In this document: positions 37,986 through 59,678 of the stretch, one piece after another
Numbering within the stretch: the first letter of the stretch is position 1
How the letters are laid out: the number at the start of each line of letters is the position of its first letter
Virus record (IMG/VR): IMGVR_UViG_3300032323_003295
Coordinates: 28,490-92,489 of that record
Source of the DNA: a virus
Lineage: Duplodnaviria > Heunggongvirae > Uroviricota > Caudoviricetes
Reading direction: 5' to 3' (one strand)
Length of the DNA stretch: 64,000 nt
The notes under the pieces: generated by a model
The model's database searches: none
Seen by the model: only the letters and a program-made list of their open reading frames with translations
What the model was told of the DNA's origin: nothing
Position numbers and translations under genes: made by a program

Positions 37986-40900
37986 TTAATTTGATGGTCC
38001 AATATTTGTTGGTATTGTAATAGGTATTATTATATTATTTTTATTTACAATATTTTCATCTATTGTATATTTCTCTAAATAATCTTTATTTGCTTTAGTT
38101 AATGTAGATGTTTCTAAATAATACTTTAAATCCCAAGTTGATGAGAAAATGAAGAAATCATAAATAGAATAACCAAATTCATCTAACATTGGATAAACTG
38201 ATTTCTCATCTGCATTATCTTTTAATTTTAAAATGCTTCCTTTTCTATTTATTTTTCTAACTTTTCTTTCTTTGACAATACCAAAGTTTGTTAATGTAGT
38301 ATCAAATAAATAGTTACCAGTTTTTTTATACTCATAATCTCTTTTAAATAATTCTATATCATAAAATAAAGGCATGTAATATCCACTAAATCTATAGATA
38401 GTATCACTTAGTATATTTTTTGAACCATGATAGTTTTCTGTAACCTTAGGTGCAAATTGATTCTCAATTATATTAACACCAACTGGATTACCATTATAAT
38501 AATTCAACTGATTAATATTTAGTATTTTACCATTTTCTAACTTTCTGAAAGGATTTAATGGATTAGGTAAGTTAATAGGTCTTTTTAACAAAGATTGTAT
38601 TTTAACATCTAAACTATCAGGTCCTTCACACTTAATTATATAAGGTAAATTAACAATATTATTAGTATAACTATATTTATTAATTGTATTATCTTCATCA
38701 ATAACTACATAAGATACATAATCAGTAAATCCATACTTATTAGTTATATCATTTATTGATGCCATAAAATTAGTAGCAGTTAATTTTTTATATAATTCAT
38801 TATAAAGGTCATCTCTATTAGTTGATGAAACATTAGTATATGTATTATCTGATATATTTATATTAACTAATATATTTTTCCACTTTTTATTGATATAGAT
38901 TATAATACCATTATCAAGTGTTGAAGTACTTGCAGTACCATTAGTTGCCATATAATATTTATCATTTAGTAAAATAATTGGATTTCCATTTTTATTATCT
39001 TCTGTATAGCTTCTGTTATATCTAAAATCTGTATCTGGTATTAAACTATATCTTCTTTCCCAACCATTATAAATACCTGGTTCTAAACCTGGTAATATTA
39101 CCAAAGAATTATTATATAATATTTCATTATGAACAACATAAGAACCAGCAGTATATGTTTTAATAGGATTCCAAATTTCAACTAATTTCCATTTGAAATA
39201 ACTTGGTACAAAAAAAGATGTAGATTTGCTCCATTTAAGTTCATTAATAATTGTATTATTGACATTATTATCTATTAATGATATATAATAATTACCACTA
39301 CTTTTAACAATATCAGATTTAGAATATGTTACAGTTGAATTAAAGTCATTAATAGTGGATATATCAACCCATTGACTTTGATTAGGATGGAAAATATTAT
39401 TATCTGTATTAGATATAAAAACTTTATTATTATACATTACAATACTTCCTGTTGCATATTGATTAGAAGGTTTCCAAAAATCTATAGTATAAGGTATCAA
39501 GTTACCTATACCAATTACAGATGAATTATAATATTGTGTACTTGTTTGTGTAGGTAGAGTATTTTCTACATAATATTCACCTGAATTATACACAAAACTA
39601 CCATTTGTATTTAAACTTCCAGGTGACCAAAATATCTCTTTATTAGTAAGAATATTACTATAAATATCCCAACCTTGGTTAGTAGGATTTGATAAAACAT
39701 CAACAGGAATAGCATTTAAAATAATTTTAGTGGTAGGTCCACAAGGTCCTAAAGGTAGACCACTTCTATTTTGATATAAAATATCATCAAATATAACAAT
39801 AGAGTTAATAGCATATATTTTATCCATTTTCCATTCATCAATTATAGTCCATTCTAAAGTACTTGCAGATTGTGTCAATGATGCTGGTATAGTATTGGTA
39901 AGAGAAAAATCATTATCAGATAATAAAACAGACATTTTATAATCCACAAAATCATTATTTGTTGATATGTTAATTTTATCAATTTGATTATTAGAGTTTA
40001 AGTTAACTCCTTCTACTTTATAAATTTCAAATCTAATTCCTCTAAATAAACTATGATTAGGAACTGAGTCATCTCCAACATTAAAGTAAGAATATTTTAT
40101 AGTATTCTTTTTAATATCACCATTTAAAAATTGTGTTTGCTTACTAAAAAAGTAACTAAAATAATCATAAGAGTAAGTTCCTTGATTTAAGTACTTATCT
40201 AACTCAAACTTAAATGTGTTATCAATAGTATTATCACTATTAAAATTCTCAACATGTAAACTATGATGTAAATATGATGATGTTGCAGAATTTATAGTAT
40301 AGAAATAATCTAAATTTCTTTCAATTCTTCTAGGATGTATATCAGAAACATTTACAGTTCTATTATAATCTTCAAATATCAAAGAGTTATTTAGTAAGTA
40401 AGGCATATCATTTCCTGATATTGAGTTTTGAAATCCAAATCTACAATAAACTGGATTCTTTCTCCATATTTCTGATAAGTTACCAGTTGTATCATCTACC
40501 TTAAAAGTTTCATAATTTGCAGTGTACTCAGATGATACAGGAATTTTAACCACTTCATTCTTATAAACAAAGTCATCTAAATCTCTTGGATCAGTTTTAC
40601 TTGTCAAATCTTCAAAATACATTTTAGTTTCATCTGTATTTGTAAGGTCTGTTAACTTTTCATATTCATATTTAGAATATTCAGTATCAATCAATCTATC
40701 ATCAAAATCTTTAATATCAGTAAGTTTTGCCTTATAGATATTAAATATTGTAGGTGGATTATTAAAATCAACTATAGTATTAATTGTTTTTTCAACATTA
40801 TTTACCTTATAAGTGTAACTATTCTCATTAAATTGAAATGAATAATCACTATTAACACTAATTGAATTAGTACCACTTTGAATTAAACTATGATAAAGAC

Positions 40901-42278
40901 CATCAATATTAATTAACCAAATATCAGCAGTATTAAAATTATCAATAGTAATTGGCATATCACTCATATCTTTCAATATATTATCTCTAATCTCACCAAA
41001 ATTTTGATTAAAACTTGAATAGGTCATTCCACCAAAATCTAAATCAGATATTATTCTATACTTAGTTACAATTACTTCACCATAATTTTCAACTGCTGAT
41101 TTTGTATTAGTAGTTAAATCTTTAGTATTGATTATTTTAACACTAGATGCTTGTTTTTTAGATGAACTAAATCCTAAGTCTCTTTGCATTCTATCTTCTG
41201 ATGTATTACCTTTAGTGTTTTTAACTTTAATTAATTGATTTGTAATAGTTTCTGTATATTGTTCTACTTTATAATATTTACCTTTATATTCTACATAAAA
41301 AGGTTTCTTATCTGTCCAAACTTCTTCAAATGGATAACCACTTGGTGATGATAATATATTTCTATCATCACCTGATAAAACAACAATATCACTTTTTAAA
41401 GGAACTGGTATATAAGATGACATTGTTGTTACCAACTCTAAATCATCTAAATAAAATCCATAGTATCTATTTATAGACCAGCTTCTTTTTTGTTCTGGTG
41501 TAGATGGTGTATCATCAAATAAAAAAGACAAGTTTAGTATATTAGGAAAAACAACCTTATTATTTTTATAAGAATCAAATACAAACTTTTCAAATTCAAA
41601 TATTTCTTTTTCTTCATCTAAAATATCATCAATGAATAATGATTTAGAAGTATATCCACCATTTTGATAATCAATACCATTCCATCTACAAAACTCAAGA
41701 TTTCTAAAATCTATTTCTAATGGTGCATCAGGAAAATATTTGTTATCAACAAAGTTTGTATATAACCATTCACCAAATAAACTTTCTTTAGTTAAATCAA
41801 ATAGTTTAATTGTTTTGAATTTACTAATAATATCAGATTTAAAATTTGCAGTTGTTAGTGTTCCAATACCAGGACCATCTACTCTAAATACAATAAAGTT
41901 TTTAGGAAGTCCTGTCTTAGTAATATAAAGTGGTGCAAAGTATTCATACTCTTCTGAATAATTCTTATTATCAATTATATTTCTTGCACCATAGTTATAT
42001 AGTTCATCATATTGATAAGCAAAATCATTTGACATTGTTTCTGCATCATTCTCATATTTTATACTATATGCAGTCTCTGCTGGTAAATCTTTATAAAAAT
42101 AAGGTATTAACTCATCATAATAATTACTCTTATTAAATGAGACCTTTTTGAATTTGTCAAAAGACAAATTCATATTTGATTCAATACTATCTAAACTTAG
42201 CTTATAGTTAGTATCAATCATTATTTTTATATTAGTTGTTAAACCAACATTGGTTCTTAATATGGCAAATGATTTCAT
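37986..42278 (-). CDS. Large virion structural protein (1,430 aa; baseplate/fibre candidate)
   Basis: Long uninterrupted ORF, N/Y/S-rich with no catalytic motifs. It is tightly packed with the 1,066-aa gene upstream (7-nt gap). Confidence 0.7.
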   Translation of the reverse strand: MKSFAILRTNVGLTTNIKIMIDTNYKLSLDSIESNMNLSFDKFKKVSFNKSNYYDELIPYFYKDLPAETAYSIKYENDAETMSNDFAYQYDELYNYGARNIIDNKNYSEEYEYFAPLYITKTGLPKNFIVFRVDGPGIGTLTTANFKSDIISKFKTIKLFDLTKESLFGEWLYTNFVDNKYFPDAPLEIDFRNLEFCRWNGIDYQNGGYTSKSLFIDDILDEEKEIFEFEKFVFDSYKNNKVVFPNILNLSFLFDDTPSTPEQKRSWSINRYYGFYLDDLELVTTMSSYIPVPLKSDIVVLSGDDRNILSSPSGYPFEEVWTDKKPFYVEYKGKYYKVEQYTETITNQLIKVKNTKGNTSEDRMQRDLGFSSSKKQASSVKIINTKDLTTNTKSAVENYGEVIVTKYRIISDLDFGGMTYSSFNQNFGEIRDNILKDMSDMPITIDNFNTADIWLINIDGLYHSLIQSGTNSISVNSDYSFQFNENSYTYKVNNVEKTINTIVDFNNPPTIFNIYKAKLTDIKDFDDRLIDTEYSKYEYEKLTDLTNTDETKMYFEDLTSKTDPRDLDDFVYKNEVVKIPVSSEYTANYETFKVDDTTGNLSEIWRKNPVYCRFGFQNSISGNDMPYLLNNSLIFEDYNRTVNVSDIHPRRIERNLDYFYTINSATSSYLHHSLHVENFNSDNTIDNTFKFELDKYLNQGTYSYDYFSYFFSKQTQFLNGDIKKNTIKYSYFNVGDDSVPNHSLFRGIRFEIYKVEGVNLNSNNQIDKINISTNNDFVDYKMSVLLSDNDFSLTNTIPASLTQSASTLEWTIIDEWKMDKIYAINSIVIFDDILYQNRSGLPLGPCGPTTKIILNAIPVDVLSNPTNQGWDIYSNILTNKEIFWSPGSLNTNGSFVYNSGEYYVENTLPTQTSTQYYNSSVIGIGNLIPYTIDFWKPSNQYATGSIVMYNNKVFISNTDNNIFHPNQSQWVDISTINDFNSTVTYSKSDIVKSSGNYYISLIDNNVNNTIINELKWSKSTSFFVPSYFKWKLVEIWNPIKTYTAGSYVVHNEILYNNSLVILPGLEPGIYNGWERRYSLIPDTDFRYNRSYTEDNKNGNPIILLNDKYYMATNGTASTSTLDNGIIIYINKKWKNILVNINISDNTYTNVSSTNRDDLYNELYKKLTATNFMASINDITNKYGFTDYVSYVVIDEDNTINKYSYTNNIVNLPYIIKCEGPDSLDVKIQSLLKRPINLPNPLNPFRKLENGKILNINQLNYYNGNPVGVNIIENQFAPKVTENYHGSKNILSDTIYRFSGYYMPLFYDIELFKRDYEYKKTGNYLFDTTLTNFGIVKERKVRKINRKGSILKLKDNADEKSVYPMLDEFGYSIYDFFIFSSTWDLKYYLETSTLTKANKDYLEKYTIDENIVNKNNIIIPITIPTNIGPSN

Positions 42279-51393: not shown

Positions 51394-51717
51394 ATGACAA
51401 CAAATGCAATAGAATTAACACCATCAACTTATGAAGATTTTGTAAAAAATGAATATGTATTAGTAGATGTTTGGGCCCCTTGGTGTGGCCCCTGTAAACA
51501 AATTTCACCAATTATAGATCAAATCTCTTTAGAGTTTATGGATCAATTACATGTTGGTAAATTAAATGCTGATGAAAATAGAGACATTCTTGTTGAATTA
51601 GGAGTTAGAAATATTCCTACATTAATCCTTTTCAAAAATGGAGAGATTGTTGAAAGAAGTACAGGAATGACTAGTAAAGAAAAATTAGCTGAATTGATTA
51701 ATACTCACTTAAACTAA
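51394..51717 (+). CDS. Thioredoxin
   Basis: WAPWCGPCK active site inside a thioredoxin-sized ORF of 107 aa. Confidence 0.85.
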   Translation: MTTNAIELTPSTYEDFVKNEYVLVDVWAPWCGPCKQISPIIDQISLEFMDQLHVGKLNADENRDILVELGVRNIPTLILFKNGEIVERSTGMTSKEKLAELINTHLN

Positions 51718-51721
51718 TTTA

Positions 51722-52228
51722 ATGGAACCAACAGAATATTTATTTGAATTAATTAATCAATCAAATATTTCACTATTAGGTTACACTTTCAAAGAAGAAA
51801 GAATTAAAGATGAAATTATTTCTAAAGTTTCTCATATTGAGATACCAGAAATAAATTCATCTTTTTCTATGCTTTCTTATATTAGAGATTCTAAAATTGA
51901 TTCAGTATTAAATAATAAAACTGAAACACCAAGTCACTTTTTATTAGACATAAATAACTTTATGGTAGGTAGAGGTGAATTGAGTAGAGCCAATGTGATA
52001 AAAAATGCTCTTCAAAGAATAGCAAATGAATTAATAGATACTAATTTTAAACTATTAATCACTTGTCCAATATATACTACTGCAGGTAATGATGAATACA
52101 ATTTCAGTGGTGGTAATACAGGATTATATATGGCCGATTTTGTAGGTATAATTAGAGAAGATAGAGTAAGAATAATGAAAAACCGTGAAGGTGGATCTCA
52201 AATAGATATAAAATATGATAGCAAATAA
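51722..52228 (+). CDS. Hypothetical protein
   Basis: 168-aa ORF that overlaps the smpB start by 14 nt. Confidence 0.5.
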   Translation: MEPTEYLFELINQSNISLLGYTFKEERIKDEIISKVSHIEIPEINSSFSMLSYIRDSKIDSVLNNKTETPSHFLLDINNFMVGRGELSRANVIKNALQRIANELIDTNFKLLITCPIYTTAGNDEYNFSGGNTGLYMADFVGIIREDRVRIMKNREGGSQIDIKYDSK

Positions 52229-52649
52229 TAGAAAGGCTTATTATGAATTTCACATTCACGAAGAGTTTGAAGCAGGGGTTGTATTGGTTGGAAGTGAAGT
52301 AAAATCAATTAGAATGGGTAATGTTACTTTAGCAGATTCTTTTATTTACTTAAAAGATGGTGAAGTATGGCTCAAGAATATGAATGTGGCTAGATATAAA
52401 TCATCACATCCATTAACAAAACATGAAGAGAACAGAGATAAGAAGTTACTTTTAAGTAGAAAAGAAATCAATAGAATTGAAAGAAAACTACAAGACAAAG
52501 GAACAACTGCAATACCATTAAGTATATTTCTAAAAAGAAACAGAATTAAAATTAAAATTGGTGTGGCAACTGGTAAAAAATTATGGAATAAAAGAGAAGA
52601 TATTAAAAAGAAAGATATAGAAAGAGAAATGAAAAGAGGTATGGTTTAA
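52215..52649 (+). CDS. smpB: SsrA-binding protein SmpB
   Basis: KAYYEFHIHEEFEAGVVLVGSEVKSIRMGNVTLADSFIYLKDGEVWL...KLLLSRKEINRIERKL matches SmpB along its full length, including the conserved basic C-terminal tail. Confidence 0.9.
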   Translation: MIANNRKAYYEFHIHEEFEAGVVLVGSEVKSIRMGNVTLADSFIYLKDGEVWLKNMNVARYKSSHPLTKHEENRDKKLLLSRKEINRIERKLQDKGTTAIPLSIFLKRNRIKIKIGVATGKKLWNKREDIKKKDIEREMKRGMV

Positions 52650-52679: not shown

Positions 52680-53552
52680 ATGACACCATCTAAAATAAAA
52701 TTGATTGATTATTTGAAATCAAATTATAATAAAAAATCTAAAGATGAAATAATTAAAGATACAAATCTTTCTTGGAACTATATACAAAAAATTGCTTGTT
52801 TAAATAAAATCAAAAAAGGTTCTAATGAATCAAAAAACAACTCAAAGTATTCAAAAATAATTGATTACAATGATAATATAACTTGTTATTGGATAGGTTT
52901 TATACTTGCAGATGGTCATATATACAAAGAATCCAACATTCAGATAAACTTATCAATAAAAGATAAAGAATATATTTTAAAAATTGAAGAACATATAGGA
53001 AAAGTATGTAAATATGAGTATAAAGATGATATAAGACTTGTAATATCAGATAGAAAAAGTGTGAGTAAATTATCTAATGACTTTAATTGGTTGTCTAATA
53101 AAACCAAGAATCCAGTAAAAATACCTGATAACATAACCAATGACCAACTATTTAGCATGATGATTGGATTTATAGATGGTGATGGATGTATAAATAAAAA
53201 GGGTTTGTTATATCTTAAATGTGATTCTTCATGGGGATATTTTTTAGAAGAAGTATATTATATACTAACATCATCAAAAAAGAATTTTTATATATCACCT
53301 GATGGATGCTCAAATATATGTATAACTAAAAATAAAGAAGTACTTAAAATCAAGAATAGAGCATTGTCTCTAAATTTACCTATAATGAATAGAAAATGGG
53401 ATAGAGTAGTTGATAGAACATTAAAATGTGATAAATATAACATTATACAAAATCTACTTATTGAGGGACATGATATTAAAAAGATAAAAGAAAATACTGG
53501 GTTTAGTCAGTCACTTATTTATAAAGTTAAAAAAGATTTAAAATGGAAGTAG
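52680..53552 (+). CDS. LAGLIDADG-family homing endonuclease (two-motif monomeric type)
   Basis: Two LAGLIDADG motifs: WIGFILADGHIYKE and MIGFIDGDGCINKKG. 290 aa, free-standing between smpB and the next gene. Confidence 0.75.
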   Translation: MTPSKIKLIDYLKSNYNKKSKDEIIKDTNLSWNYIQKIACLNKIKKGSNESKNNSKYSKIIDYNDNITCYWIGFILADGHIYKESNIQINLSIKDKEYILKIEEHIGKVCKYEYKDDIRLVISDRKSVSKLSNDFNWLSNKTKNPVKIPDNITNDQLFSMMIGFIDGDGCINKKGLLYLKCDSSWGYFLEEVYYILTSSKKNFYISPDGCSNICITKNKEVLKIKNRALSLNLPIMNRKWDRVVDRTLKCDKYNIIQNLLIEGHDIKKIKENTGFSQSLIYKVKKDLKWK

Positions 53553-53696: not shown

Positions 53697-54047
53697 ATGA
53701 AAAATAACATAGAAGACTTCTTTGAAAAACTCCATAGTTCAGGTAGTGAGGAAGAAGTAATAAAAAACTTAAAAAGGATTATCAAAGGTTTCAATGTATC
53801 TACATACAAAGAAAGACTTATGAGTAATCCTTATTTTAGTTTATTGATAAATGAAATCAAAGGTGATATTTTATTTGAGATTGGTTTAATTAAAGATAAT
53901 ATAGAATTAGAAATAAGAGGTATAGATGATGCTTTAGGTAAACCAATTAGTGTTAGTGACTTTAATAGATTAAAAGATTTGAAAAGAGAATGTATGGGTT
54001 TACTTTATGAAATAAATGATCGAATCAATGATTTGATTTTACTTTAA
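53697..54047 (+). CDS. Hypothetical protein (N-terminus MKNNIEDFFEKL)
   Basis: 116-aa ORF. Its N-terminus weakly resembles the shared family motif. Confidence 0.45.
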   Translation: MKNNIEDFFEKLHSSGSEEEVIKNLKRIIKGFNVSTYKERLMSNPYFSLLINEIKGDILFEIGLIKDNIELEIRGIDDALGKPISVSDFNRLKDLKRECMGLLYEINDRINDLILL

Positions 54048-55655
54048 TAAACTATTAACAAACTTCTCAATTATATTTAGTTTTATCATTGATTCCTCAA
54101 ATTCATCATCAGCACCATCACAATATGAAACATATCTAGACATATTACTACTACTTGAATCAAATGAATTTATAACATCATTATATGGTGTTGCTAATTT
54201 ATTTCTACGATCTGATATGAAATCTTGTATAACACTTAACTTATATTTAACCATTATTATATCATGTATATTCTCAATATCAACAGACTCAATATAGTTA
54301 TTTATTTTCTCACCTAAATTTAACAATCTTTTTATTATAGTAATAAGATTTTCATCATTTGATTTTAGAATAACATCTAAGTTATTTCTGTAAATATTAC
54401 TATAACTTGTAGTATTTCCTCTACTATTTTTAAATACACTTAAAACATTACTGAAATAATACTCTTTATCATCTTCATTTACTAAATTATATAATTGATT
54501 AATAAGATTATTCAATGAACTCATATTATTATCTAAATAAAGATTAAATATAACAAACTTATTACACATTATATTATTAACAAATTTATTCAATTTAGAA
54601 AAGTCTTCTGTATCTTTATGTAATCCATACTTAGCAACTAATTTAGTAGTATAATTATTAATATTTATTTGCTTTATATCATAATCAGACATAAGAGCAG
54701 TAGCACCTTGTCTAGCACTAGTTCTATCTCTTCTTATAGTATTTATATTTGGAATTGAAAGTAGTTTATCCATATAGACAATAATAGCAAAGTCTGCTTT
54801 TTCTATAGCAGTTTCAATTATACCTTGATTATCTAATGTCCAATCCATAATATTACCTCTACTATCTAATGGTTTATTAAAATCTGCTAAATTGGCTTTA
54901 TGTTTAGGTTTATCAATTTTAATTTCTTGTCTTAATTGTCTATTATTTTTAGTATAAAGATGTAATCTAAAATGATCACCATCTGTATGAATAATACCAT
55001 TATTTTCATCATCACGTCCTAATCTCCAAGTATATTGATAATTTTGTGCAAAATCTGGTCTATCTCCATAAACAGATGTTCCATCTGATTTATAATCATT
55101 ATAAACATAAATTGCATTAGAATTATAAGTATCAATAAATACTTTACCAATTACTACTCTATTTGAATCACTATTATCACCAAGTACAACTAAGACATCA
55201 TCACCTGTTTTTAAACTTTTATAATCTAATACTGATGATAATTTACCTTTATTTATTCCTAAACTATTTTTAATATAATAAAATTGATCCTGATTAAAAT
55301 TTTTATTTTTATAAGAATAATCATTTTCTATCTTAACATATGGTGTAGTTAAATTACCTGTACAAGTTTTACCCAAAAATCCTTGTTCTACAGAGAACCA
55401 ATATTTTATACAATAAATATCCCAGTTATTATTAACTGGTTCATTATTCTTAACTTTAATTGCTTTTGATGTTCTAAGATATTCTAAATCATCTTCTTTT
55501 ATTCTTGAGATAGGAATATTATATATACCCATTAATCTTTTAATATCATCAGAGAAAGATGTAGCACTTTTTTGCCCTATTTTCTTAGTTAAGAATTTAA
55601 GTGTATTAGTAATCACTTGTGATTCAAAGGCTTCATATAATTTAATGTATTTCAT
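54039..55655 (-). CDS. Hypothetical protein with CTS-like N-terminus (MKYIKLYEAFES)
   Basis: 538-aa ORF with a family-type N-terminus. Convergent with the gene at 53697. Confidence 0.6.
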   Translation of the reverse strand: MKYIKLYEAFESQVITNTLKFLTKKIGQKSATSFSDDIKRLMGIYNIPISRIKEDDLEYLRTSKAIKVKNNEPVNNNWDIYCIKYWFSVEQGFLGKTCTGNLTTPYVKIENDYSYKNKNFNQDQFYYIKNSLGINKGKLSSVLDYKSLKTGDDVLVVLGDNSDSNRVVIGKVFIDTYNSNAIYVYNDYKSDGTSVYGDRPDFAQNYQYTWRLGRDDENNGIIHTDGDHFRLHLYTKNNRQLRQEIKIDKPKHKANLADFNKPLDSRGNIMDWTLDNQGIIETAIEKADFAIIVYMDKLLSIPNINTIRRDRTSARQGATALMSDYDIKQININNYTTKLVAKYGLHKDTEDFSKLNKFVNNIMCNKFVIFNLYLDNNMSSLNNLINQLYNLVNEDDKEYYFSNVLSVFKNSRGNTTSYSNIYRNNLDVILKSNDENLITIIKRLLNLGEKINNYIESVDIENIHDIIMVKYKLSVIQDFISDRRNKLATPYNDVINSFDSSSSNMSRYVSYCDGADDEFEESMIKLNIIEKFVNSLLK

Positions 55656-56185
55656 TACTTATATATTAAAATAAATTTTTCAAATTAAAACTTTTGTTAT
55701 ATATTTGTATAATAATAATGAGTTATTAAGGTTGACAGTTATAAATAATGAACAAAAGTCACATAACTTTAATAATGTTTATGGTAAGTAAGTAGCTAAC
55801 AAATAAGTTAACACCTTTGATAAAATTAGTGAACTACCTTGTACTTAAATATATGATAAAATGTAAAGGTGTAGTATTGAAATTGTGATGGTAATAAATA
55901 CTCAAAATCTAAACAGATGATAGTAGGTTATAAATAAGAAAATAACTTACTGAAACTAAATCCAACACTATGAAGAAATTAAATGCGTAGAATGGTAACA
56001 CTACGAAACCAAGGACACAAATCCATTAAAAGGTAATCCCAAGTGATTAGATCATAAAAGTTAAGGTTAGGCTCTCGGATTCCGGCCATACTTAACAGGC
56101 GTTCCACCCTCTTCATATTTTTTTAAAATAAATTAGGTTGAATAAAATAATTGTTCTACATTTGCAGAACTAAAAATTAGAAATT

Positions 56186-56590
56186 ATGAGTTTAAAAGAA
56201 AAAATTAGCAAAGACTACATGACTGCTTTCAAAGAAAGAAATGCAGTAGCAAAAAATTTACTTTCTGTAGTAAAAGGAGAAATCCAAACTATTGAAAAAA
56301 ATACAGGAGTTGATTGTCTTTCTGATGCAGAAGTAATCAAAATCCTTAACAAAACAGCAAAGTCTTTAAATGAGGTTATTGCAACAAGTGGTGATGAAGA
56401 GTCTAAATTACAATTAACTATTGTAGAAGCTTTACTTCCAACTGCATTAACAAGAGAGGATATTGTTGCTAAAGTAAATGAACTTGTAGCATCTGGTGTA
56501 ACAAATGTAGGTGGTATTATGAAAGAGTTTGCAACTTTACAAGTTGACAGAAAAGTAGTATCAGAAGTAATCAAAGAAGTATTAGTTTAA
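56186..56590 (+). CDS. GatB/YqeY-domain protein
   Basis: MSLKEKISKDYMTAFKERNAVAKNLLSVVKGEIQ...ILNKTAKSLNEVIATSGDEE...EALLP parallels the YqeY family (MSLKERL.EDMK.AMKAKDK.RLSTIRML...). 134 aa. Confidence 0.7.
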   Translation: MSLKEKISKDYMTAFKERNAVAKNLLSVVKGEIQTIEKNTGVDCLSDAEVIKILNKTAKSLNEVIATSGDEESKLQLTIVEALLPTALTREDIVAKVNELVASGVTNVGGIMKEFATLQVDRKVVSEVIKEVLV

Positions 56591-56847
56591 TCTGAATTAA
56601 AAGTCTTAAAGTCTTTTACTTTAGTTGGCATACCACCAGTATCAATACCTTTAGTCCATTCATCATTGAATACCCATTTTTTATCTTTGGGAGCATTCTT
56701 TTTTGATTTGTACTTCTTACGCATTGCAAAGATGTATTTAAGTTGTTGAAAGGATTTTGCTGGCATAAGGTATATATAAAAAATTAAAAACAAAAATGGG
56801 AGCATTTTTATTAGGAATATTTGTTGGGTACATCCTTTGGGGTACAA
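56587..56847 (-). CDS. Possible small protein (86 aa), uncertain
   Basis: Open frame with a protein-like C-terminus (DEWTKGIDTGGMPTKVKDFK). It is convergent with the GatB/YqeY gene and overlaps it by 4 nt. The alternative is a noncoding region. Confidence 0.3.
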   Translation of the reverse strand: MYPKGCTQQIFLIKMLPFLFLIFYIYLMPAKSFQQLKYIFAMRKKYKSKKNAPKDKKWVFNDEWTKGIDTGGMPTKVKDFKTFNSD

Positions 56848-57013
56848 AGAAATAGATAAGCATTAAAGAGACAGTGACATGAGTAATCAAGTGAGGCACA
56901 CATAAAACAGTACCAATGAAAATGTTGAGGTGTTAGACCACCATATGTTTATCTTTTTTAAAAATAAATTTGGTAGAATAAAAAATTAGTATTACTTTTG
57001 TATCAAATAAAAA

Positions 57014-57181: not shown

Positions 57182-57465
57182 TATAAGATAAAAATAACAA
57201 ATCAAGAAAAATTAAAAATAAATTAGAAAAAAATTAGGTAGATAAGTAAACTTTTATTACTTTTGTACTATAAAAATAACAAAAAAACAAAAAGAGAGAA
57301 TAAAACTTTAATATATATAATAATGAGAACAAATTTCAAACATACAAGCTTTAGTAAGTCGTTCAAGTGGTTTAGCCACAAGTTCGGATGTATGAGTATG
57401 TCGTTCTCAGATGTAACTTTAATTAGTTAGTTATATTGATAAGAGAATAATAAAACATAAACAGA

Positions 57466-57497
57466 AACCCGAACTTTACAAAAAGTTTGGGTTTTTT
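57466..57497 (+). terminator. Rho-independent terminator
   Basis: AAACCCGAACTTT-ACAAAA-AGTTTGGGTTT (with one G.U pair) followed by a T-run. Confidence 0.6.
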
Positions 57498-57507
57498 CAT
57501 TTTATAA

Positions 57508-57580
57508 TCCCCCTAAACATTGTTGGTGGATGTACCAGACTTTTAATCTGGGAAGGTGGTTTCGATTACCACAGGGGGAA
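57508..57580 (+). tRNA. tRNA-Lys (anticodon TTT)
   Basis: Manual fold: acceptor TCCCCCT/AGGGGGA, D stem ACAT/ATGT, anticodon stem CCAGA/TCTGG with loop CTTTTAA, T arm GTGGT-TTCGATT-ACCAC. 73 nt. Confidence 0.7.
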
Positions 57581-57586
57581 CAAAAT

Positions 57587-57659
57587 ACAGGTCAGCATAA
57601 TGGTATGCACCAGGTCTCCAAAACCTTGGATGGAAAGAGTTCGACTCTCTTGGCTTGTG
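57587..57659 (+). tRNA. tRNA-like, Trp(CCA)-like, degenerate (possible pseudo-tRNA)
   Basis: Canonical T arm AAGAG-TTCGACT-CTCTT and D arm GCAT-AATGGT-ATGC, with anticodon loop CTCCAAA. The acceptor stem needs two G.U pairs and the anticodon stem has a mismatch. It shares GGTCTCCAAAACC with the Trp tRNA at 57825. Confidence 0.35.
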
Positions 57660-57669
57660 CAAATATAAT

Positions 57670-57742
57670 GGACCTTTCGTATAGCTGGTGCGTACGTTGG
57701 ACTGAAAATCCAAAGGACAGGGCTCGATTCCCTGAGGGTCCA
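57670..57742 (+). tRNA. tRNA-Phe (anticodon GAA)
   Basis: Acceptor GGACCTT/AGGGTCC, anticodon stem TTGGA/TCCAA with loop CTGAAAA, T arm CAGGG-CTCGATT-CCCTG. 73 nt. Confidence 0.7.
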
Positions 57743-57744
57743 CT

Positions 57745-57817
57745 TTGATGGTAGCTTAATTGGTTAAAGCACTTGGTTGTGAGCCAAGGGATTGCGGGTT
57801 CAAGTCCCGTCTGTCAA
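57745..57817 (+). tRNA. tRNA-His (anticodon GTG)
   Basis: D arm GCTT-AATTGGTTA-AAGC, anticodon stem CTTGG/CCAAG with loop TTGTGAG, T arm GCGGG-TTCAAGT-CCCGT, acceptor with two G.U pairs. Confidence 0.65.
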
Positions 57818-57824
57818 CCCAAAA

Positions 57825-57898
57825 TACGTCATTGGTGAAATGGTATCATCCTGGTCTCCAAAACCAGTGTTACAGGTTCGAGTCCTGTATGGCGTGCT
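57825..57898 (+). tRNA. tRNA-Trp (anticodon CCA)
   Basis: Acceptor ACGTCAT/ATGGCGT, anticodon stem CTGGT/ACCAG with loop CTCCAAA, T arm ACAGG-TTCGAGT-CCTGT. Confidence 0.75.
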
Positions 57899-57905
57899 GA
57901 TATGG

Positions 57906-57979
57906 TGATTGTCGTCTAAAGGTTAGGATGCCTCCCTGTGAAGGAGGAGATGCGGTCTCGGGATCCGTCTTTCACCCAA
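57906..57979 (+). tRNA. tRNA-like element, His(GTG)-like anticodon arm, non-canonical (probable pseudo-tRNA)
   Basis: Perfect anticodon arm CCTCC-CTGTGAA-GGAGG and a D-arm-like CGTC...GATG. The acceptor pairs at only 5 of 7 positions and the T arm is non-canonical (4-bp stem, 9-nt loop). Confidence 0.3.
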
Positions 57980-57988
57980 ATAATTCTC

Positions 57989-58062
57989 TCCCGTAGCTTA
58001 AATGGAGAAAGCCGCATACTTTTAATATGCAGACTACTGGATCGTACCCAGTCGGGGGAACT
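57989..58062 (+). tRNA. tRNA-Lys-like (second TTT anticodon), unusual T loop
   Basis: Acceptor TCTCCCG/CGGGGGA, D arm GCTT...AAGC, anticodon stem GCATA/TATGC with loop CTTTTAA, T stem ACTGG/CCAGT with atypical loop ATCGTAC. Confidence 0.5.
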
Positions 58063-58135
58063 AATTTACAAGCACTCAACTTTTTAAGGAGAGGGAGTTC
58101 AATTATTTATATATAAAAGAAAAGATAATTGAATT

Positions 58136-58936
58136 ATGAAGGAGTGTAAGTATTGTGGATTTACAACAGAAAATGGATTAAAACTTGGTGGACATATTAC
58201 AAATTGTAAATTAAATCCAAATTATAAAATTAGATGTAGTAAATTAAGTGAAATTGGTAAAAATAGAAAATTATCAGATGAAACTAGAAAAAAAATATCA
58301 AATAGTAGAAAAGAATATTTAAAAAATAATCCTGATAAAGTTCCTTACCTATTAAATCATAGTAGAAATGAATCATATCCTGAGAAATATTTTACTGAGG
58401 TTTTTTTAGATAAAAATATTAATATAACAAAATCCTACAGAATTGGATTGTATGAATTAGACTTTTGTATTTTAGATAAGAAAATAGATATAGAGGTTGA
58501 TGGTAGTCAACACTATTTAGATAATAAAATTATTGAAAGTGATAAAAGAAGAAATAAATATTTAGAAGACTTAGGTTGGGATATAATTAGAATAAAATGG
58601 AGTGAGTATCAATTATTGAACAAGGATTCTAAAAAGTATTTTATTGATAGTTTAATACTTTATATAAATGGATTAGTAGAAAACAAACCAACATTTGAAC
58701 TATTAGATAATAAAAAGTATTGTGAATGTGGTATAGAAATATATAAACGTTCTAAAATGTGTTCTAAATGTGATTCATTTAAACAAAGAAAGGTTGAAAG
58801 ACCTTCATTATACCAACTATTAAAAGATATAAAAGAAACAAACTATGTCTCAACTGGTAAAAAATATGGTGTTAGTGATAACACTATAAGAAAATGGATA
58901 AAGAAATATAATGCGGATTTAGCTGAGACGGTTTAG
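58136..58936 (+). CDS. Homing-endonuclease-like protein: Zn finger + NUMOD3 + DUF559 (PD-(D/E)xK, Vsr-like) nuclease + Zn ribbon + C-terminal HTH
   Basis: N-terminal CKYCGF...GGHITNC. NUMOD3-type GKNRKLSDETRKKISNSRKEY. DUF559 core YRIGLYELDFCILDKKIDIEVDGSQHY...DKRRNKYLEDLGWDIIRIKWSE. CECG...CSKC ribbon. HTH TNYVSTGKKYGVSDNTIRKWIKKY. It sits inside the tRNA array and its last ~24 nt overlap the next tRNA. Confidence 0.7.
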   Translation: MKECKYCGFTTENGLKLGGHITNCKLNPNYKIRCSKLSEIGKNRKLSDETRKKISNSRKEYLKNNPDKVPYLLNHSRNESYPEKYFTEVFLDKNINITKSYRIGLYELDFCILDKKIDIEVDGSQHYLDNKIIESDKRRNKYLEDLGWDIIRIKWSEYQLLNKDSKKYFIDSLILYINGLVENKPTFELLDNKKYCECGIEIYKRSKMCSKCDSFKQRKVERPSLYQLLKDIKETNYVSTGKKYGVSDNTIRKWIKKYNADLAETV

Positions 58937-58984
58937 CGTATGGTTGAAGCCCATAAGAGGTCGGTTCGATTCCGTCAGTCCGCA
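58913..58984 (+). tRNA. tRNA, anticodon GAA (Phe-like; second copy)
   Basis: Acceptor GCGGATT/AGTCCGC, anticodon stem TATGG/CCATA with loop TTGAAGC, T arm GTCGG-TTCGATT-CCGTC (one mismatch). The 5' end overlaps the upstream CDS. Confidence 0.5.
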
Positions 58985-58993
58985 CAAAAAATT

Positions 58994-59085
58994 AGTCTGA
59001 TAATGTAGTGGTAACATTATGTAGTCGATCCAGATTTTTCTGGGGTATCTTCCGCTCATCACAGGTTCGATTCCTGTTCAGACTA
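58994..59085 (+). tRNA. tRNA-like element of aberrant length (92 nt), anticodon undetermined
   Basis: Perfect 7-bp acceptor AGTCTGA/TCAGACT, D arm ATGT-AGTGGTA-ACAT and canonical T arm ACAGG-TTCGATT-CCTGT. About 25 extra nt lie between the D arm and the T arm, including hairpin TCCAGA-TTTT-TCTGGG. No standard 7-nt anticodon loop could be placed. Confidence 0.4.
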
Positions 59086-59289
59086 CTAAAAGTTGTTTTG
59101 TAACAAACAAAACACTACTAAAAATAAATAAAACAAAGAATAAAATTTTAATATATAAGTTATGAAAACAATTATAAGTACTCACATAGTGAGAGTGCAA
59201 AGCACTACATCGTCAAGTTCATCAAGTCGCTCAAGTAAATTGAGGGAGGATCTTGTGTATTCATAATTTTTTTAAGTAAAAGTTATATG

Positions 59290-59322
59290 AAACCCACAAA
59301 CCTCAAAGTTTGTGGGTTTTTT
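59290..59322 (+). terminator. Rho-independent terminator
   Basis: AACCCACAAAC-CTCAAA-GTTTGTGGGTT followed by a T7 run. Confidence 0.7.
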
Positions 59323-59326
59323 TATT

Positions 59327-59399
59327 GGTTCCATCGTTCAATTGGATAGGATAGGTCGCTACGAACGATCAGATATAGGTTCGAATCCTATTGGAATCA
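59327..59399 (+). tRNA. tRNA-Arg (anticodon ACG)
   Basis: Acceptor GGTTCCA/TGGAATC, anticodon stem GGTCG/CGATC with loop CTACGAA, T arm ATAGG-TTCGAAT-CCTAT. Confidence 0.7.
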
Positions 59400-59406
59400 C
59401 AAATAT

Positions 59407-59494
59407 GGAGAGTAACTGGCTGGATGAAGGCCTAGTTTTGAAAACTAGTAACTCGGAGAAATCTGGGTTGTGGGTTCGAGTCCCACACTCTCTT
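59407..59494 (+). tRNA. tRNA-Ser (anticodon TGA), long variable arm
   Basis: Acceptor GGAGAGT/ACTCTCT, anticodon stem CTAGT/ACTAG with loop TTTGAAA, variable-arm hairpin, T arm GTGGG-TTCGAGT-CCCAC. 88 nt. Confidence 0.65.
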
Positions 59495-59499
59495 CAAAA

Positions 59500-59587
59500 G
59501 GAAGGATAAACCAAGTTGGTCTATGGGTCGCAGTCTTGAAAACTGTTGGGGGTAACACCCGTGTGAGTTCAAGTCTCACTTCTTCCG
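59500..59587 (+). tRNA. tRNA-Ser (anticodon TGA, second copy), long variable arm
   Basis: Acceptor GGAAGGA/TTCTTCC (Ser-like), anticodon loop CTTGAAA, variable hairpin GGGGTAACACCC, T arm GTGAG-TTCAAGT-CTCAC. 88 nt. Confidence 0.6.
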
Positions 59588-59592
59588 CAATT

Positions 59593-59678
59593 AGTGAATA
59601 AACCATGATGGTGATTGGGTCTGCCTGGAAAGCAGTACATACGTTTAGATGTATAGAGTTCGATTCTCTTTTTCACTG
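59593..59678 (+). tRNA. tRNA-Ser (anticodon GGA), long variable arm
   Basis: D stem ACC/GGT, anticodon stem CTGC/GCAG with loop CTGGAAA, variable hairpin TACAT-ACGTTTAG-ATGTA, T loop TTCGATT. 86 nt. Confidence 0.6.

What the first reader, a model, noticed from the sequence alone, without database searches (positions are those of the whole stretch)
52215..52649. SmpB gene with no identifiable tmRNA (ssrA) in the window
SmpB functions only together with tmRNA. I searched the noncoding regions for a tRNA-like domain plus a tag reading frame ending ...AA-stop and found none. The regions searched were 55656-56185, 56591-57013, 57182-57507 and 59086-59326. The phage could rely on host tmRNA, carry ssrA elsewhere, or carry a divergent or permuted tmRNA that is not recognisable by eye. 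A phage SmpB that hijacks or blocks host trans-translation would be functionally interesting.
Basis: partly seen in the sequence, partly recalled or inferred. Interest (0 to 1): 0.55.

Follow-up and report, generated by a model that had tools for sequence, protein, structure and literature searches.

The report
Orphan megaphage SmpB beside unknown RNA
A giant bacteriophage carries an intact ribosome-rescue protein (SmpB) but neither it nor its closest sequenced relatives carry the RNA partner (tmRNA) that SmpB normally needs; a previously undescribed, highly folded ~340-base RNA gene always sits just downstream of smpB instead.

Summary
ORF 52215-52649(+) is a full-length canonical SmpB that passes the curated equivalog cut-offs, keeps the functional tail motifs and is under purifying selection. 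ARAGORN and all 4227 Rfam models find no tmRNA in the window. The window is about 10% of a megaphage genome and is collinear with LR745206.1. That complete 634,780-bp relative has about 60 tRNAs and no tmRNA by either method. 92% of a second relative (LR756502.1) also has none, by ARAGORN only.

It has at least 12 covarying helices, three of them pseudoknots, and matches no Rfam family. It is single-copy and lies downstream of smpB in every locus with enough upstream sequence among the 40 that carry it. In one subclade it starts within roughly 30-70 nt of the smpB stop codon.

It fails every defining test for tmRNA: no acceptor stem or T-arm, no G3:U70, no conserved tag frame.

Best reading: the phage SmpB works on host tmRNA to keep ribosomes free during infection. 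The unexcluded novel reading is that the new RNA is an SmpB-associated, tRNA-mimicking partner. Phage SmpB itself is already known.

The parts
52215..52649 (+). smpB: full-length SsrA-binding protein, 144 aa
   Evidence: ORF. Pfam PF01668 E 1e-52. NCBIfam equivalogs above cut-off. Matches to solved SmpB structures. Central loop, GKK, aromatic residue, [DN]KR and basic tail all conserved. dN/dS 0.03-0.23.
55778..56117 (+). Unclassified conserved structured RNA of about 340 nt. It has a 5' domain with two pseudoknots and a 3' domain (55969-56117) closed by a long-range helix. The 3' domain contains a D-arm-like hairpin (55985-56005, loop AAUGGUAACA) and an invariant GUUCC (56102-56106).
   Evidence: 69% DNA identity to the syntenic site of LR745206.1, E 9e-47, where the flanking protein is only 31% identical. 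98.3-98.5% identical in close relatives against 90-94% for flanking genes. Covariation: 91.2% of cells paired against 34-45% when partners are slid; 33 pairs changed on both sides; 0 of 500 shuffles reach the observed score. All 9 pairs of the closing helix covary. RNAalifold recovers five of the helices on its own. Covariance model: 169.7 bits at 55955-56123. nhmmer: 55768-56122, E 1.5e-74. No Rfam match. Helix coordinates.
55749..55776 (+). Sigma-70-like promoter match (TGAACA, 16 nt, AATAAT) just upstream of the conserved 5' end of the RNA
   Evidence: Consensus scan, 9 of 12 matches. Weak evidence only: the region gave 9 matches against 5.4 expected from shuffles.
51722..52228 (+). 168-aa ORF of unknown function whose stop overlaps the smpB start by 14 nt. 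It is conserved upstream of smpB across the clade.
   Evidence: No Pfam, PHROG or PADLOC match. Faint similarity to TrxR-type ferredoxin-NADP reductase, E 0.01.
51394..51717 (+). Thioredoxin gene, the conserved first gene of the Trx / 168-aa ORF / smpB block
   Evidence: Pfam PF00085 E 2.9e-27. Synteny.
52680..53552 (+). LAGLIDADG-type homing endonuclease ORF inserted directly after smpB. It is absent from both complete relatives.
   Evidence: Pfam PF14528 E 4.6e-6. No counterpart in LR745206.1 or LR756502.1.
53697..55655 (.). Two ORFs of unknown function: 116 aa on + (53697-54047) and 538 aa on - (54039-55655). They separate smpB from the RNA in this subclade and are missing where the RNA directly abuts smpB.
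   Evidence: No family match.
56186..56590 (+). YqeY / GatB-C-terminal-like protein gene, immediately downstream of the RNA in most homologous loci
   Evidence: PF09424. phrog_1460 'tRNA amidotransferase', E 1.9e-20. Lies 155-236 nt after the RNA motif in most loci.
57508..59677 (+). tRNA gene array: 11 ARAGORN calls plus 2 found only by Rfam. It is interrupted by a DUF559 endonuclease-like ORF (58136-58936). It contains no tmRNA.

Best explanation
The window is about one tenth of a megaphage genome of roughly 600 kb or more, from the 'Mahaphage' group that includes the Lak phages (group name from my memory of Al-Shayeb et al. 2020). It encodes a fully canonical SmpB inside a translation-support island: thioredoxin, a 168-aa ORF, smpB, [new RNA], yqeY, then tRNA arrays.

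The lineage has no canonical tmRNA gene of its own. The most likely mechanism is that phage SmpB loads onto the host's alanyl-tmRNA and drives ordinary trans-translation. [quoted passage not shown] EF-Tu delivers the complex to ribosomes stalled on truncated mRNA. The aromatic residue and the [DN]KR motif engage the decoding centre, and the basic tail occupies the empty mRNA channel.

Supplying the protein half would keep rescue going during a long infection, when host gene expression is shut off, host mRNA is degraded, or host defence nucleases cut mRNA and tRNA. That would free ribosomes for phage translation.

Shown: the identity, integrity and selection of smpB; the absence of any detectable canonical tmRNA in the window, in one complete relative genome and in 92% of a second; and the existence and linkage of a new structured RNA.

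Inferred: use of host tmRNA and the benefit to the phage. The role of the new RNA is left open. It may act in tRNA or translation biology independently of SmpB.
For: - SmpB is canonical and complete.
- The central loop and the tail motifs are kept across the clade and in Lak and other megaphages. These are GKK, an aromatic W/Y/F/H at the E. coli His136 position, [DN]KR and a basic helix; their roles are described in PMC4151336.
- Purifying selection: dN/dS 0.03-0.23.
- The family is large and conserved: 1115 homologs at E<1e-10, the top 120 all at least 64% identical, several on contigs of 400-641 kb.
- No tmRNA in the window or in its right flank.
- The window is collinear with LR745206.1. 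That complete genome has about 60 tRNAs and no tmRNA by ARAGORN or by Rfam over all of it.
- LR756502.1, 91.9% covered: 46 tRNAs, no tmRNA.
- No tmRNA within 10 kb of smpB in Lak-A1, Lak-B5, LR756504.1 or LR756501.1. Those phages also lack the new RNA near smpB, so SmpB is kept in megaphages without it.
- The detector works: positive control.
Against: - The rest of this phage's own genome was not available. At least 117 kb more exists on the matching scaffold.
- The relatives' SmpBs are only 65-66% identical, so gene content could differ.
- 8% of LR756502.1 was unscanned, and that genome was not run through Rfam.
- Other megaphages do carry a standard tmRNA (PMC9723777; PMC8172020).
- The host is unknown, so compatibility of phage SmpB with host tmRNA is untested.
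- A conserved, pseudoknot-rich RNA of tmRNA-like size sits where ssrA most often sits, downstream of smpB on the same strand (PMC4131195). The host-tmRNA model does not explain this coincidence.
Confidence: 0.55

Rival explanations
1. The ~340-nt RNA (55778-56117) is the dedicated partner of phage SmpB. It would be either a radically derived replacement for tmRNA, or a tRNA-elbow mimic bound by SmpB and perhaps also by the YqeY protein encoded on its other side. The complex would act on ribosomes or tRNA metabolism by a route other than canonical tagging.
For: - smpB lies upstream on the same strand in every locus with at least 2.8 kb of upstream sequence, among the 40 loci that carry the RNA.
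- In the subclade L022/L026/L042, L033, L043, L055 the RNA starts within roughly 30-70 nt of the smpB stop. (L054, listed with this subclade, is truncated upstream.)
- In L022 the smpB-RNA pairing persists although yqeY is absent.
- ssrA is the most frequent neighbour of smpB in bacteria (PMC4131195).
- The RNA has tmRNA-like size and several pseudoknots.
- Its 3' domain has a closing helix, a hairpin shaped like a tRNA D-arm (4-6 bp stem, loop AAUGGUAACA with an invariant GG) and an invariant GUUCC.
- The lineage lacks a canonical tmRNA.
- Both flanking proteins belong to families that bind the D-loop/elbow side of tRNA-like RNA. For SmpB see the literature. For the GatB YqeY domain this is from my own knowledge and was not checked here.
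Against: - It fails all defining tmRNA features. There is no 5'/3' acceptor stem, T-arm, G3:U70 or encoded CCA (sequence inspection).
- No tmRNA, tRNA or other Rfam model matches even at E<=10.
- There is no conserved tag reading frame: frames shift between homologs.
- The SmpB tail keeps the motifs tied to EF-Tu activation and A-site accommodation of alanyl-tmRNA, which argues for a canonical partner.
- Lak and the 636- and 735-kb phages keep SmpB without this RNA near it.
- All loci come from one syntenic lineage, so the linkage amounts to few independent events.
- The RNA also adjoins yqeY and tRNA arrays.
Confidence: 0.17
2. This phage does carry a canonical ssrA, but outside the 64-kb window, in the roughly 90% of its genome not seen here.
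For: - The window is only part of a scaffold of at least 182 kb, from a lineage with genomes of 600 kb and more.
- Some megaphages have a tmRNA detectable with standard tools.
- Al-Shayeb et al. state that huge phages encode tmRNAs and SmpB.
Against: - The two closest deposited genomes, collinear with the window around smpB, have none. One was scanned whole by ARAGORN and Rfam, the other over 92% by ARAGORN.
- None occurs in any of the 40 homologous loci or in the right flank.
Confidence: 0.1
3. Phage SmpB is an antagonist. It would bind host tmRNA or stalled ribosomes unproductively, blocking host trans-translation or a tmRNA-dependent host response.
For: The absence of a phage tmRNA means host tmRNA is the only canonical ligand. 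A TLD-only tmRNA in mycobacteriophage DS6A has been proposed to titrate SmpB (PMC4131195), so interference with this pathway by phages has precedent.
Against: A dominant-negative protein would be expected to lose tail function. Here GKK, the aromatic residue, [DN]KR and the basic helix are all conserved under purifying selection. Mutation of these very residues is what abolishes activity while leaving tmRNA binding intact (PMC4151336).
Confidence: 0.06

Closest known systems
Bacterial SmpB-tmRNA trans-translation system
   Same: The protein is an SmpB by every sequence test: equivalog HMMs, matches to solved structures, the central loop and the C-terminal tail motifs. The gene order, smpB followed by a structured RNA gene of about 340 nt on the same strand, mirrors the common smpB-ssrA arrangement.
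   Different: No canonical tmRNA gene accompanies it in the window or in related genomes. The RNA in the ssrA-like position has no tRNA-like domain and no tag frame.
SmpB and tmRNA genes reported in huge phages (Al-Shayeb et al. 2020, PMC7162821), and megaphages with a tmRNA (Mar_Mega_1, PMC9723777; SRX3024509_bin_4, PMC8172020)
   Same: Same kind of genome. The closest SmpBs are in LR745206.1 and LR756502.1 from the 2020 study. SmpB sits among tRNA arrays and other translation genes.
   Different: The paper lists tmRNAs and SmpB together as a rescue system. In this SmpB clade the RNA half is missing. This was checked over one complete and one 92%-covered genome.
Phage-encoded tmRNAs without SmpB (Bacillus phage G, mycobacteriophages Bxz1 and others; DS6A with the tRNA-like domain only), PMC4131195
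   Same: A phage carries only one half of the two-part rescue system and must use the host's other half.
   Different: This is the converse case: the protein is encoded and the RNA is not.
Large ornate phage-associated RNAs found near tRNA genes (GOLLD, ROOL)
   Same: The new RNA is large, pseudoknotted, phage-borne and close to tRNA arrays. The relative LR745206.1 also carries a true GOLLD RNA between tRNAs.
   Different: It matches neither the GOLLD nor the ROOL model, nor any other Rfam model. It is smaller (about 315-395 nt). It is linked to smpB and yqeY, not embedded among tRNAs.
tRNA-mimicking non-coding RNAs (YrlA-type bacterial Y RNAs; viral tRNA-like structures)
   Same: The 3' domain has a closing helix, a D-arm-like hairpin with an invariant GG and a GUUCC element that could form an elbow-like contact. 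The resemblance to these families is recalled from my own knowledge.
   Different: The YrlA model (RF02553) does not match the element; its only weak hits overlap tRNA genes. There is no T-arm stem. The GG/GUUCC contact is invariant and so has no covariation support (helix 10).

Membership tests
SmpB (SsrA-binding protein) | Match to the curated family models above their trusted cut-offs, over the full length | tested here: met
   PF01668: 178.3 bits against a cut-off of 27, model positions 1-141 of 143. NF003843: 181.6 against 130. TIGR00086: 168.6 against 119.1.
SmpB (SsrA-binding protein) | C-terminal tail with GKK, an aromatic residue at the E. coli His136 position, DKR, and a basic helix; central loop present | tested here: met
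   The window tail reads TGKKLWNKREDIKKKDIEREMKRGMV, and the central loop is retained. Both are conserved across the clade. The motif definitions come from PMC4151336. The alignment to solved SmpBs covers the tail.
SmpB (SsrA-binding protein) | Binds tmRNA and supports trans-translation | not testable with these tools
   Needs biochemistry or genetics.
tmRNA (ssrA), asked of the window as a whole | A gene recognised by ARAGORN or by the Rfam tmRNA models (standard and permuted) | tested here: not met
   Positive control.
tmRNA (ssrA), asked of the new RNA at 55778-56117 | tRNA-like domain: the 5' and 3' ends pair into an acceptor stem with G3:U70, next to a T-arm | tested here: not met
   No ARAGORN tRNA or tmRNA call at 90% threshold in 18 homologs. 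Calls appear only at 70% or below, where there are 828 calls in the 635-kb relative. The closing helix is A-U rich, joins an internal segment to the 3' end, and has no conserved G:U at position 3. No tmRNA or tRNA covariance-model match at E<=10.
tmRNA (ssrA), asked of the new RNA at 55778-56117 | mRNA-like domain: a conserved tag reading frame ending in a stop codon | tested here: not met
   No frame or peptide is conserved in the 5' domain. The micro-ORFs in the 3' domain shift frame or end at different points between homologs. Their invariance is at nucleotide level, with compensatory stem changes.
tmRNA (ssrA), asked of the new RNA at 55778-56117 | About 300-400 nt, several pseudoknots, gene commonly adjacent to smpB | tested here: met
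   Length about 315-395 nt. Three pseudoknot helices have covariation support (helices 3, 7 and 13). It lies downstream of smpB in all informative loci.
GOLLD / ROOL / any other Rfam 15 family, asked of the new RNA | Match to the family covariance model | tested here: not met
   No match overlapping the element at E<=10 in the window or in six homologous loci searched with permissive filters.
Huge-phage ('Mahaphage'/Lak-related) genome | Gene-order and protein similarity to curated complete megaphage genomes | tested here: met
   Window 3957-56590 is collinear with LR745206.1 290153-336500, with proteins 30-81% identical. An identical SmpB lies on a 182-kb scaffold. Homologs lie on contigs of up to 641 kb.

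The most novel reading that the evidence does not exclude
The conserved ~340-nt pseudoknotted RNA downstream of smpB is a new class of SmpB-associated RNA. It would be either a tmRNA replacement that rescues or re-programs ribosomes without a canonical tRNA-like domain and tag, or a tRNA-elbow mimic bound by SmpB (and possibly YqeY). In that case this megaphage clade would run a non-canonical, phage-specific version of the SmpB system.
Probability: 0.15. Interest if true: 0.9.

Novelty: new variant of a known kind. Interest (0 to 1): 0.6.

Why it matters
SmpB has no established function apart from tmRNA. In the 2014 survey of PMC4131195 the only genomes found with one partner and not the other were a few highly derived bacteria.

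A widespread megaphage clade keeps a fully functional-looking smpB under purifying selection while encoding dozens of tRNAs and no tmRNA. That makes a concrete, testable case that phages supply only the protein half of trans-translation and use host tmRNA. It bears on how giant phages keep translation running against host shut-off and RNA-cleaving defences.

Separately, the linked RNA is a new, well-supported structured RNA class. It has at least 12 covarying helices, is absent from Rfam 15, and its core motif is absent from 185,579 bacterial and archaeal species genomes. Its position offers a direct hypothesis for its partner proteins, SmpB and YqeY. If it does bind SmpB, it would be the first SmpB ligand other than tmRNA.

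Tried and rejected
1. Canonical or permuted tmRNA in the window. Rejected. Relaxed ARAGORN gives only artefacts built from the tRNA array or coding sequence.

2. tmRNA elsewhere in relatives. None in the whole of LR745206.1. None in 92% of LR756502.1. None within 10 kb of smpB in Lak-A1, Lak-B5, LR756504.1 or LR756501.1.

3. The weak RF00023 hit at L029 2071-2160 (15.5 bits). It is an odd 90-nt tRNA-like gene with a normal T-arm and G:U at 4:69. It has no counterpart in the window.

4. The new RNA as a protein-coding micro-gene. Rejected: indels are not multiples of three, frames shift between homologs, and stems show compensatory changes.

5. The new RNA as a yqeY leader or riboswitch. Unlikely: in L038 a tRNA lies between the RNA and yqeY, and in L022/L026/L042 yqeY is absent.

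6. The T-rich 3' end as an intrinsic terminator. Rejected: it is the 3' strand of a covarying closing helix.

7. The new RNA as RNase P, GOLLD, ROOL, YrlA, T-box or a group I intron. No Rfam match. Partial by-eye resemblances to RNase P conserved regions are in the wrong order.

8. Single-sequence folding energy was uninformative: z about 0 on both strands, in AT-rich sequence.

9. An smpB-adjacent RNA in Lak phages. Rejected: the gap is a 301-aa ORF once TAG is read as sense, and it is missing from Lak-A1.

10. The GC-rich contig L021 carrying the 26-nt motif. It shows no other similarity and no covariance-model hit. The motif lies just upstream of what looks by eye like an rtcB gene. Probably unrelated.

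11. Function of the neighbour ORFs (168, 116 and 538 aa). No informative match in Pfam, PHROGs, PADLOC or the PDB.

12. Left flank of the window. Not retrievable.
Full report
**1. The observation**

The ORF at 52215-52649 (+) exists exactly as described: ATG start, 144 aa. It is SmpB beyond reasonable doubt.
- Pfam PF01668: E 1.1e-52, covering model positions 1-141 of 143.
- NCBIfam equivalog models are passed with margin: NF003843 scores 181.6 bits against a cut-off of 130, and TIGR00086 scores 168.6 against 119.1.
- Solved SmpB structures match at up to E 7.5e-35, and the alignment runs into the C-terminal tail.

The window contains no tmRNA.
- ARAGORN finds 11 tRNAs at 57508-59588 and no tmRNA.
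- Rfam 15 (4227 families, including the standard and permuted tmRNA models) gives no tmRNA-family match at gathering scores or at E<=10 with permissive filters.
- Lowering ARAGORN's threshold to 90% and 80% yields only 'permuted tmRNA' artefacts assembled from neighbouring tRNAs or lying in coding sequence.
- The same program finds an E. coli ssrA (sequence from my memory) spliced into window DNA.

**2. What the window is**

- An identical SmpB is encoded on a 182,453-bp metagenome scaffold (ENA ERZ28594331). That scaffold is 99.9% identical to the window over the 20 kb retrieved.
- The window ends about 1.2 kb from one end of that scaffold. That remaining flank has no tmRNA. At least 117 kb lie beyond the other end of the window and could not be fetched.
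- The closest SmpBs among deposited phage records are in LR745206.1 (634,780 bp, 66% identity) and LR756502.1 (642,428 bp, 65%). More distant ones are in all Lak phages (42-43%), LR756504.1 (636 kb, 41%) and LR756501.1 (735 kb, 38%).
- LR745206.1 and LR756502.1 are curated complete genomes from Al-Shayeb et al. 2020.
- Window 3957-56590 is collinear, gene by gene, with LR745206.1 290153-336500.
- A search of 5.8 billion proteins returns 1115 homologs at E<1e-10. The best 120 are all at least 64% identical and 141-150 aa long. Several sit on contigs of 400-641 kb.
- smpB is therefore a conserved gene of a megaphage lineage, and the window is about one tenth of such a genome.
- Against close relatives its dN/dS is 0.03-0.23.

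**3. Is the tmRNA simply elsewhere?**

I fetched all of LR745206.1.
- ARAGORN finds about 60 tRNAs and no tmRNA.
- Rfam at gathering thresholds over the entire genome finds tRNAs, a GOLLD RNA and a DUF805b motif, and no tmRNA.

For LR756502.1 I could fetch 590,414 bp, which is 91.9%. It has 46 tRNAs, no tmRNA at default or 90% thresholds, and no standard-topology call at 80%. That genome was scanned by ARAGORN only.

None of the 40 homologous loci collected later has a tmRNA. There is also none within 10 kb of smpB in Lak-A1, Lak-B5, LR756504.1 or LR756501.1.

By contrast, other megaphages are reported to have a tmRNA found with the same standard tools (PMC9723777; PMC8172020). The 2020 paper names tmRNAs and SmpB together as a huge-phage rescue system.

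For this SmpB clade, 'ssrA is elsewhere in the genome' is now the less likely reading. It cannot be excluded for this particular phage.

**4.

I compared the window's intergenic regions with LR745206.1. The 530-nt gap at 55656-56185 stood out.
- About 370 nt are 69% identical at DNA level to the syntenic site (E 9e-47), although the adjacent 538-aa protein is only 31% identical.
- In close relatives the gap is 98.3-98.5% identical, against 90-94% for the flanking genes.
- An invariant 26-nt motif retrieved 11 viral and 29 metagenomic loci. These form 20 clusters at under 95% identity, and the clusters are 57-83% identical to the window copy, leaving aside the GC-rich outlier L021 at 42%.

The alignment shows many compensatory changes. 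I derived a structure of 16 helices, with window coordinates.

The 5' domain contains:
- helix H1 (55783-88 with 55834-38);
- helix H2;
- a pseudoknot, ACACCUUU (55811-18) with AAAGGUGU (55865-72);
- hairpin H3;
- a second pseudoknot (55885-91 with 55962-68).

The 3' domain is closed by a long-range helix (55969-76 with 56110-17). Within it are:
- a hairpin GCGUAG-AAUGGUAACA-CUACG (55985-56005) that looks like a tRNA D-arm;
- three further hairpins or helices;
- a third pseudoknot, AAUCC with GGAUU;
- an invariant GUUCC.

On the plain MAFFT alignment:
- 91.2% of cells pair, against 34-45% when partners are slid by 1-3 columns;
- 33 of 74 pairs change on both sides, against 8-16 for the slid controls;
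- no shuffle out of 500 reaches the observed covariation score.

After realignment to a covariance model, all nine pairs of the closing helix covary. RNAalifold on the unfitted alignment independently recovers five of the helices. G:U pairs that would be A:C on the other strand place the RNA on the + strand.

Caveats: the structure was derived from these same sequences, and they are phylogenetically related. The slid-partner control is therefore the fairest comparison.

Other properties:
- The RNA is single-copy in the window (nhmmer 55768-56122, E 1.5e-74; covariance model 169.7 bits), in LR745206.1 and in LR756502.1.
- It matches no Rfam family, even in a permissive search of six small homologous loci.
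- Its core motif is absent from 185,579 bacterial and archaeal species genomes.
- I found no description of it in the literature searched.

**5. Linkage to smpB**

Every one of the 40 loci with at least 2.8 kb of upstream sequence has smpB upstream on the same strand.
- In the window's subclade, two ORFs of unknown function (116 aa, and 538 aa on the opposite strand) lie between smpB and the RNA. In the window itself there is also a LAGLIDADG endonuclease gene that the relatives lack.
- In a more divergent subclade (L022/26/42, L033, L043, L055; SmpB 51-54% identical) the RNA begins within roughly 30-70 nt of the smpB stop. L054 (49% identical) was also assigned to this subclade, but it is truncated upstream.
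- In L022/26/42 yqeY is not downstream, so the smpB-RNA pairing outlasts the RNA-yqeY pairing.
- In L038 a tRNA follows the RNA directly.

Downstream of smpB is the commonest position of ssrA in bacteria (PMC4131195).

**6. Is the RNA a tmRNA?**

Against the defining features, no.
- There is no acceptor stem joining the 5' and 3' ends. The closing helix joins an internal segment to the 3' end and is A-U rich.
- There is no conserved G:U at position 3 and no T-arm.
- ARAGORN makes no tRNA or tmRNA call in 18 homologs at 90% threshold. It makes three scattered tRNA calls and two permuted-tmRNA calls at 80%. The recurrent 'permuted' calls over the 3' domain appear only at 70% or below, a setting that gives 828 calls in the 635-kb relative.
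- There is no conserved tag frame.
- No tmRNA or tRNA covariance model matches.

What it shares with tmRNA is size, richness in pseudoknots, position and strand. The D-arm-like hairpin and the GUUCC element are invariant, so their possible elbow-like contact has no covariation support (helix 10).

The more distant megaphage SmpBs are not accompanied by this RNA.
- In LR756504.1 and LR756501.1 another ORF follows smpB directly.
- In Lak-B5 the apparent gap is a 301-aa ORF once TAG is read as sense, and it is missing from Lak-A1.
- Neither the sequence profile nor the covariance model finds the RNA near smpB in these phages.

**7. What the protein says about mechanism**

The phage SmpBs keep the following features:
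- the central loop;
- the EVKS(I/L)R core;
- the GKK motif;
- an aromatic residue (W in the window; Y, F or H in relatives) at the position of E. coli His136;
- [DN]KR;
- a basic C-terminal helix.

According to PMC4151336:
- the aromatic residue stacks on G530 and triggers EF-Tu GTPase activation;
- DKR and the basic tail residues are needed for accommodation and peptidyl transfer;
- mutating them abolishes activity without affecting tmRNA binding.

Retention of exactly these residues under purifying selection argues for productive, canonical trans-translation, and so for an alanyl-tmRNA partner. It argues against a dominant-negative role. With no phage tmRNA detectable, the host's tmRNA is the obvious candidate.

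This last step is an inference. So is the proposed benefit: keeping rescue capacity, and hence free ribosomes, when host gene expression stops or RNA is being cleaved. That benefit fits the neighbouring tRNA arrays and yqeY.

**8. Verdict**

- Phage SmpB itself is known from 2020.
- New here: (a) within this SmpB clade the RNA partner is missing at whole-genome scale in the closest relatives; (b) an undescribed, strongly supported structured RNA sits in the ssrA-like position.
- Probabilities: about 0.55 for 'canonical SmpB using host tmRNA'; about 0.17 for 'the new RNA is an SmpB partner'; about 0.10 for 'canonical ssrA elsewhere in this genome'; about 0.06 for 'antagonist'. The remainder is unassigned.
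- Interest 0.6. Novelty: a new variant of a known kind.

Noticed in passing
L012 18675-19080 (+), about LR745206.1 420875-421280: A bona fide GOLLD RNA (RF02032, 287 bits, E 1e-80) lies between tRNA-Met and tRNA-Pro in the closest complete relative. The window has none.
   Followed up: partly
window 52680-53552: A LAGLIDADG-type homing endonuclease ORF is inserted directly after smpB. It is absent from LR745206.1 and LR756502.1, so it is a recent mobile insertion.
   Followed up: partly
window 58136-58936: A DUF559 / MTES_1575 endonuclease-like ORF sits inside the tRNA array, splitting it into two blocks. It has no counterpart in LR745206.1.
   Followed up: no
window 57212-57507; LR745206.1 about 342269, 344980, 364944, 387592, 406579 and 419996: The sequence of about 130-300 nt before the first tRNA of the window resembles sequences that precede each tRNA array in the relative. 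This looks like a repeated array leader or promoter. It ends in a hairpin plus T-run at about 57468-57500 (by eye).
   Followed up: no
window 57508-59677: ARAGORN and Rfam disagree on several tRNAs. Rfam only: 57905-57976 and 59594-59677. ARAGORN only: 57587-57660, 57987-58061 and 58994-59086. Some have odd geometry, with the anticodon at position 31-32, and one scores best as tRNA-Sec (37 bits, below the cut-off). The tRNA genes inspected lack an encoded CCA.
   Followed up: no
L029 2071-2160 (+): A 90-nt tRNA-like gene with a canonical T-arm (ACGGG-TTCGAAT-CCCGT) and an 8-bp acceptor-like stem with G:U at 4:69. It scores better against the tmRNA model (15.5 bits, ends only) than against the tRNA model. 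ARAGORN does not call it. It has no counterpart in the window.
   Followed up: partly
L021 8394-8418 (+): A GC-rich viral contig carries the same 26-nt motif (GAGAATGGTAACACTTACTAACCAAGG) just upstream of an ORF that looks by eye like rtcB (RNA ligase). It shares no other similarity with the RNA and gives no covariance-model hit.
   Followed up: partly
window 52215-52649: The PHROGs family that matches this SmpB (phrog_6791, E 2e-48) is listed as 'unknown function', so phage annotation pipelines based on PHROGs would miss it.
   Followed up: no
window 51722-52228: A 168-aa ORF overlaps the smpB start by 14 nt and is conserved next to thioredoxin and smpB across the clade. Its only hint is a faint match (E 0.01) to TrxR-type ferredoxin-NADP reductases.
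   Followed up: partly
window 568-2385; 11584-16935; 19056-24338; 37986-42278: There is a collagen-repeat protein (605 aa, PF01391) and three very large ORFs (1783, 1760 and 1430 aa) on the minus strand. These may be structural or host-interaction proteins. The whole window reads well under the standard code, unlike Lak phages.
   Followed up: no
L004 17639-17673 (-), LR745206.1: A DUF805b RNA motif (RF02914, 38.2 bits, just above its gathering score) occurs in the relative genome.
   Followed up: no
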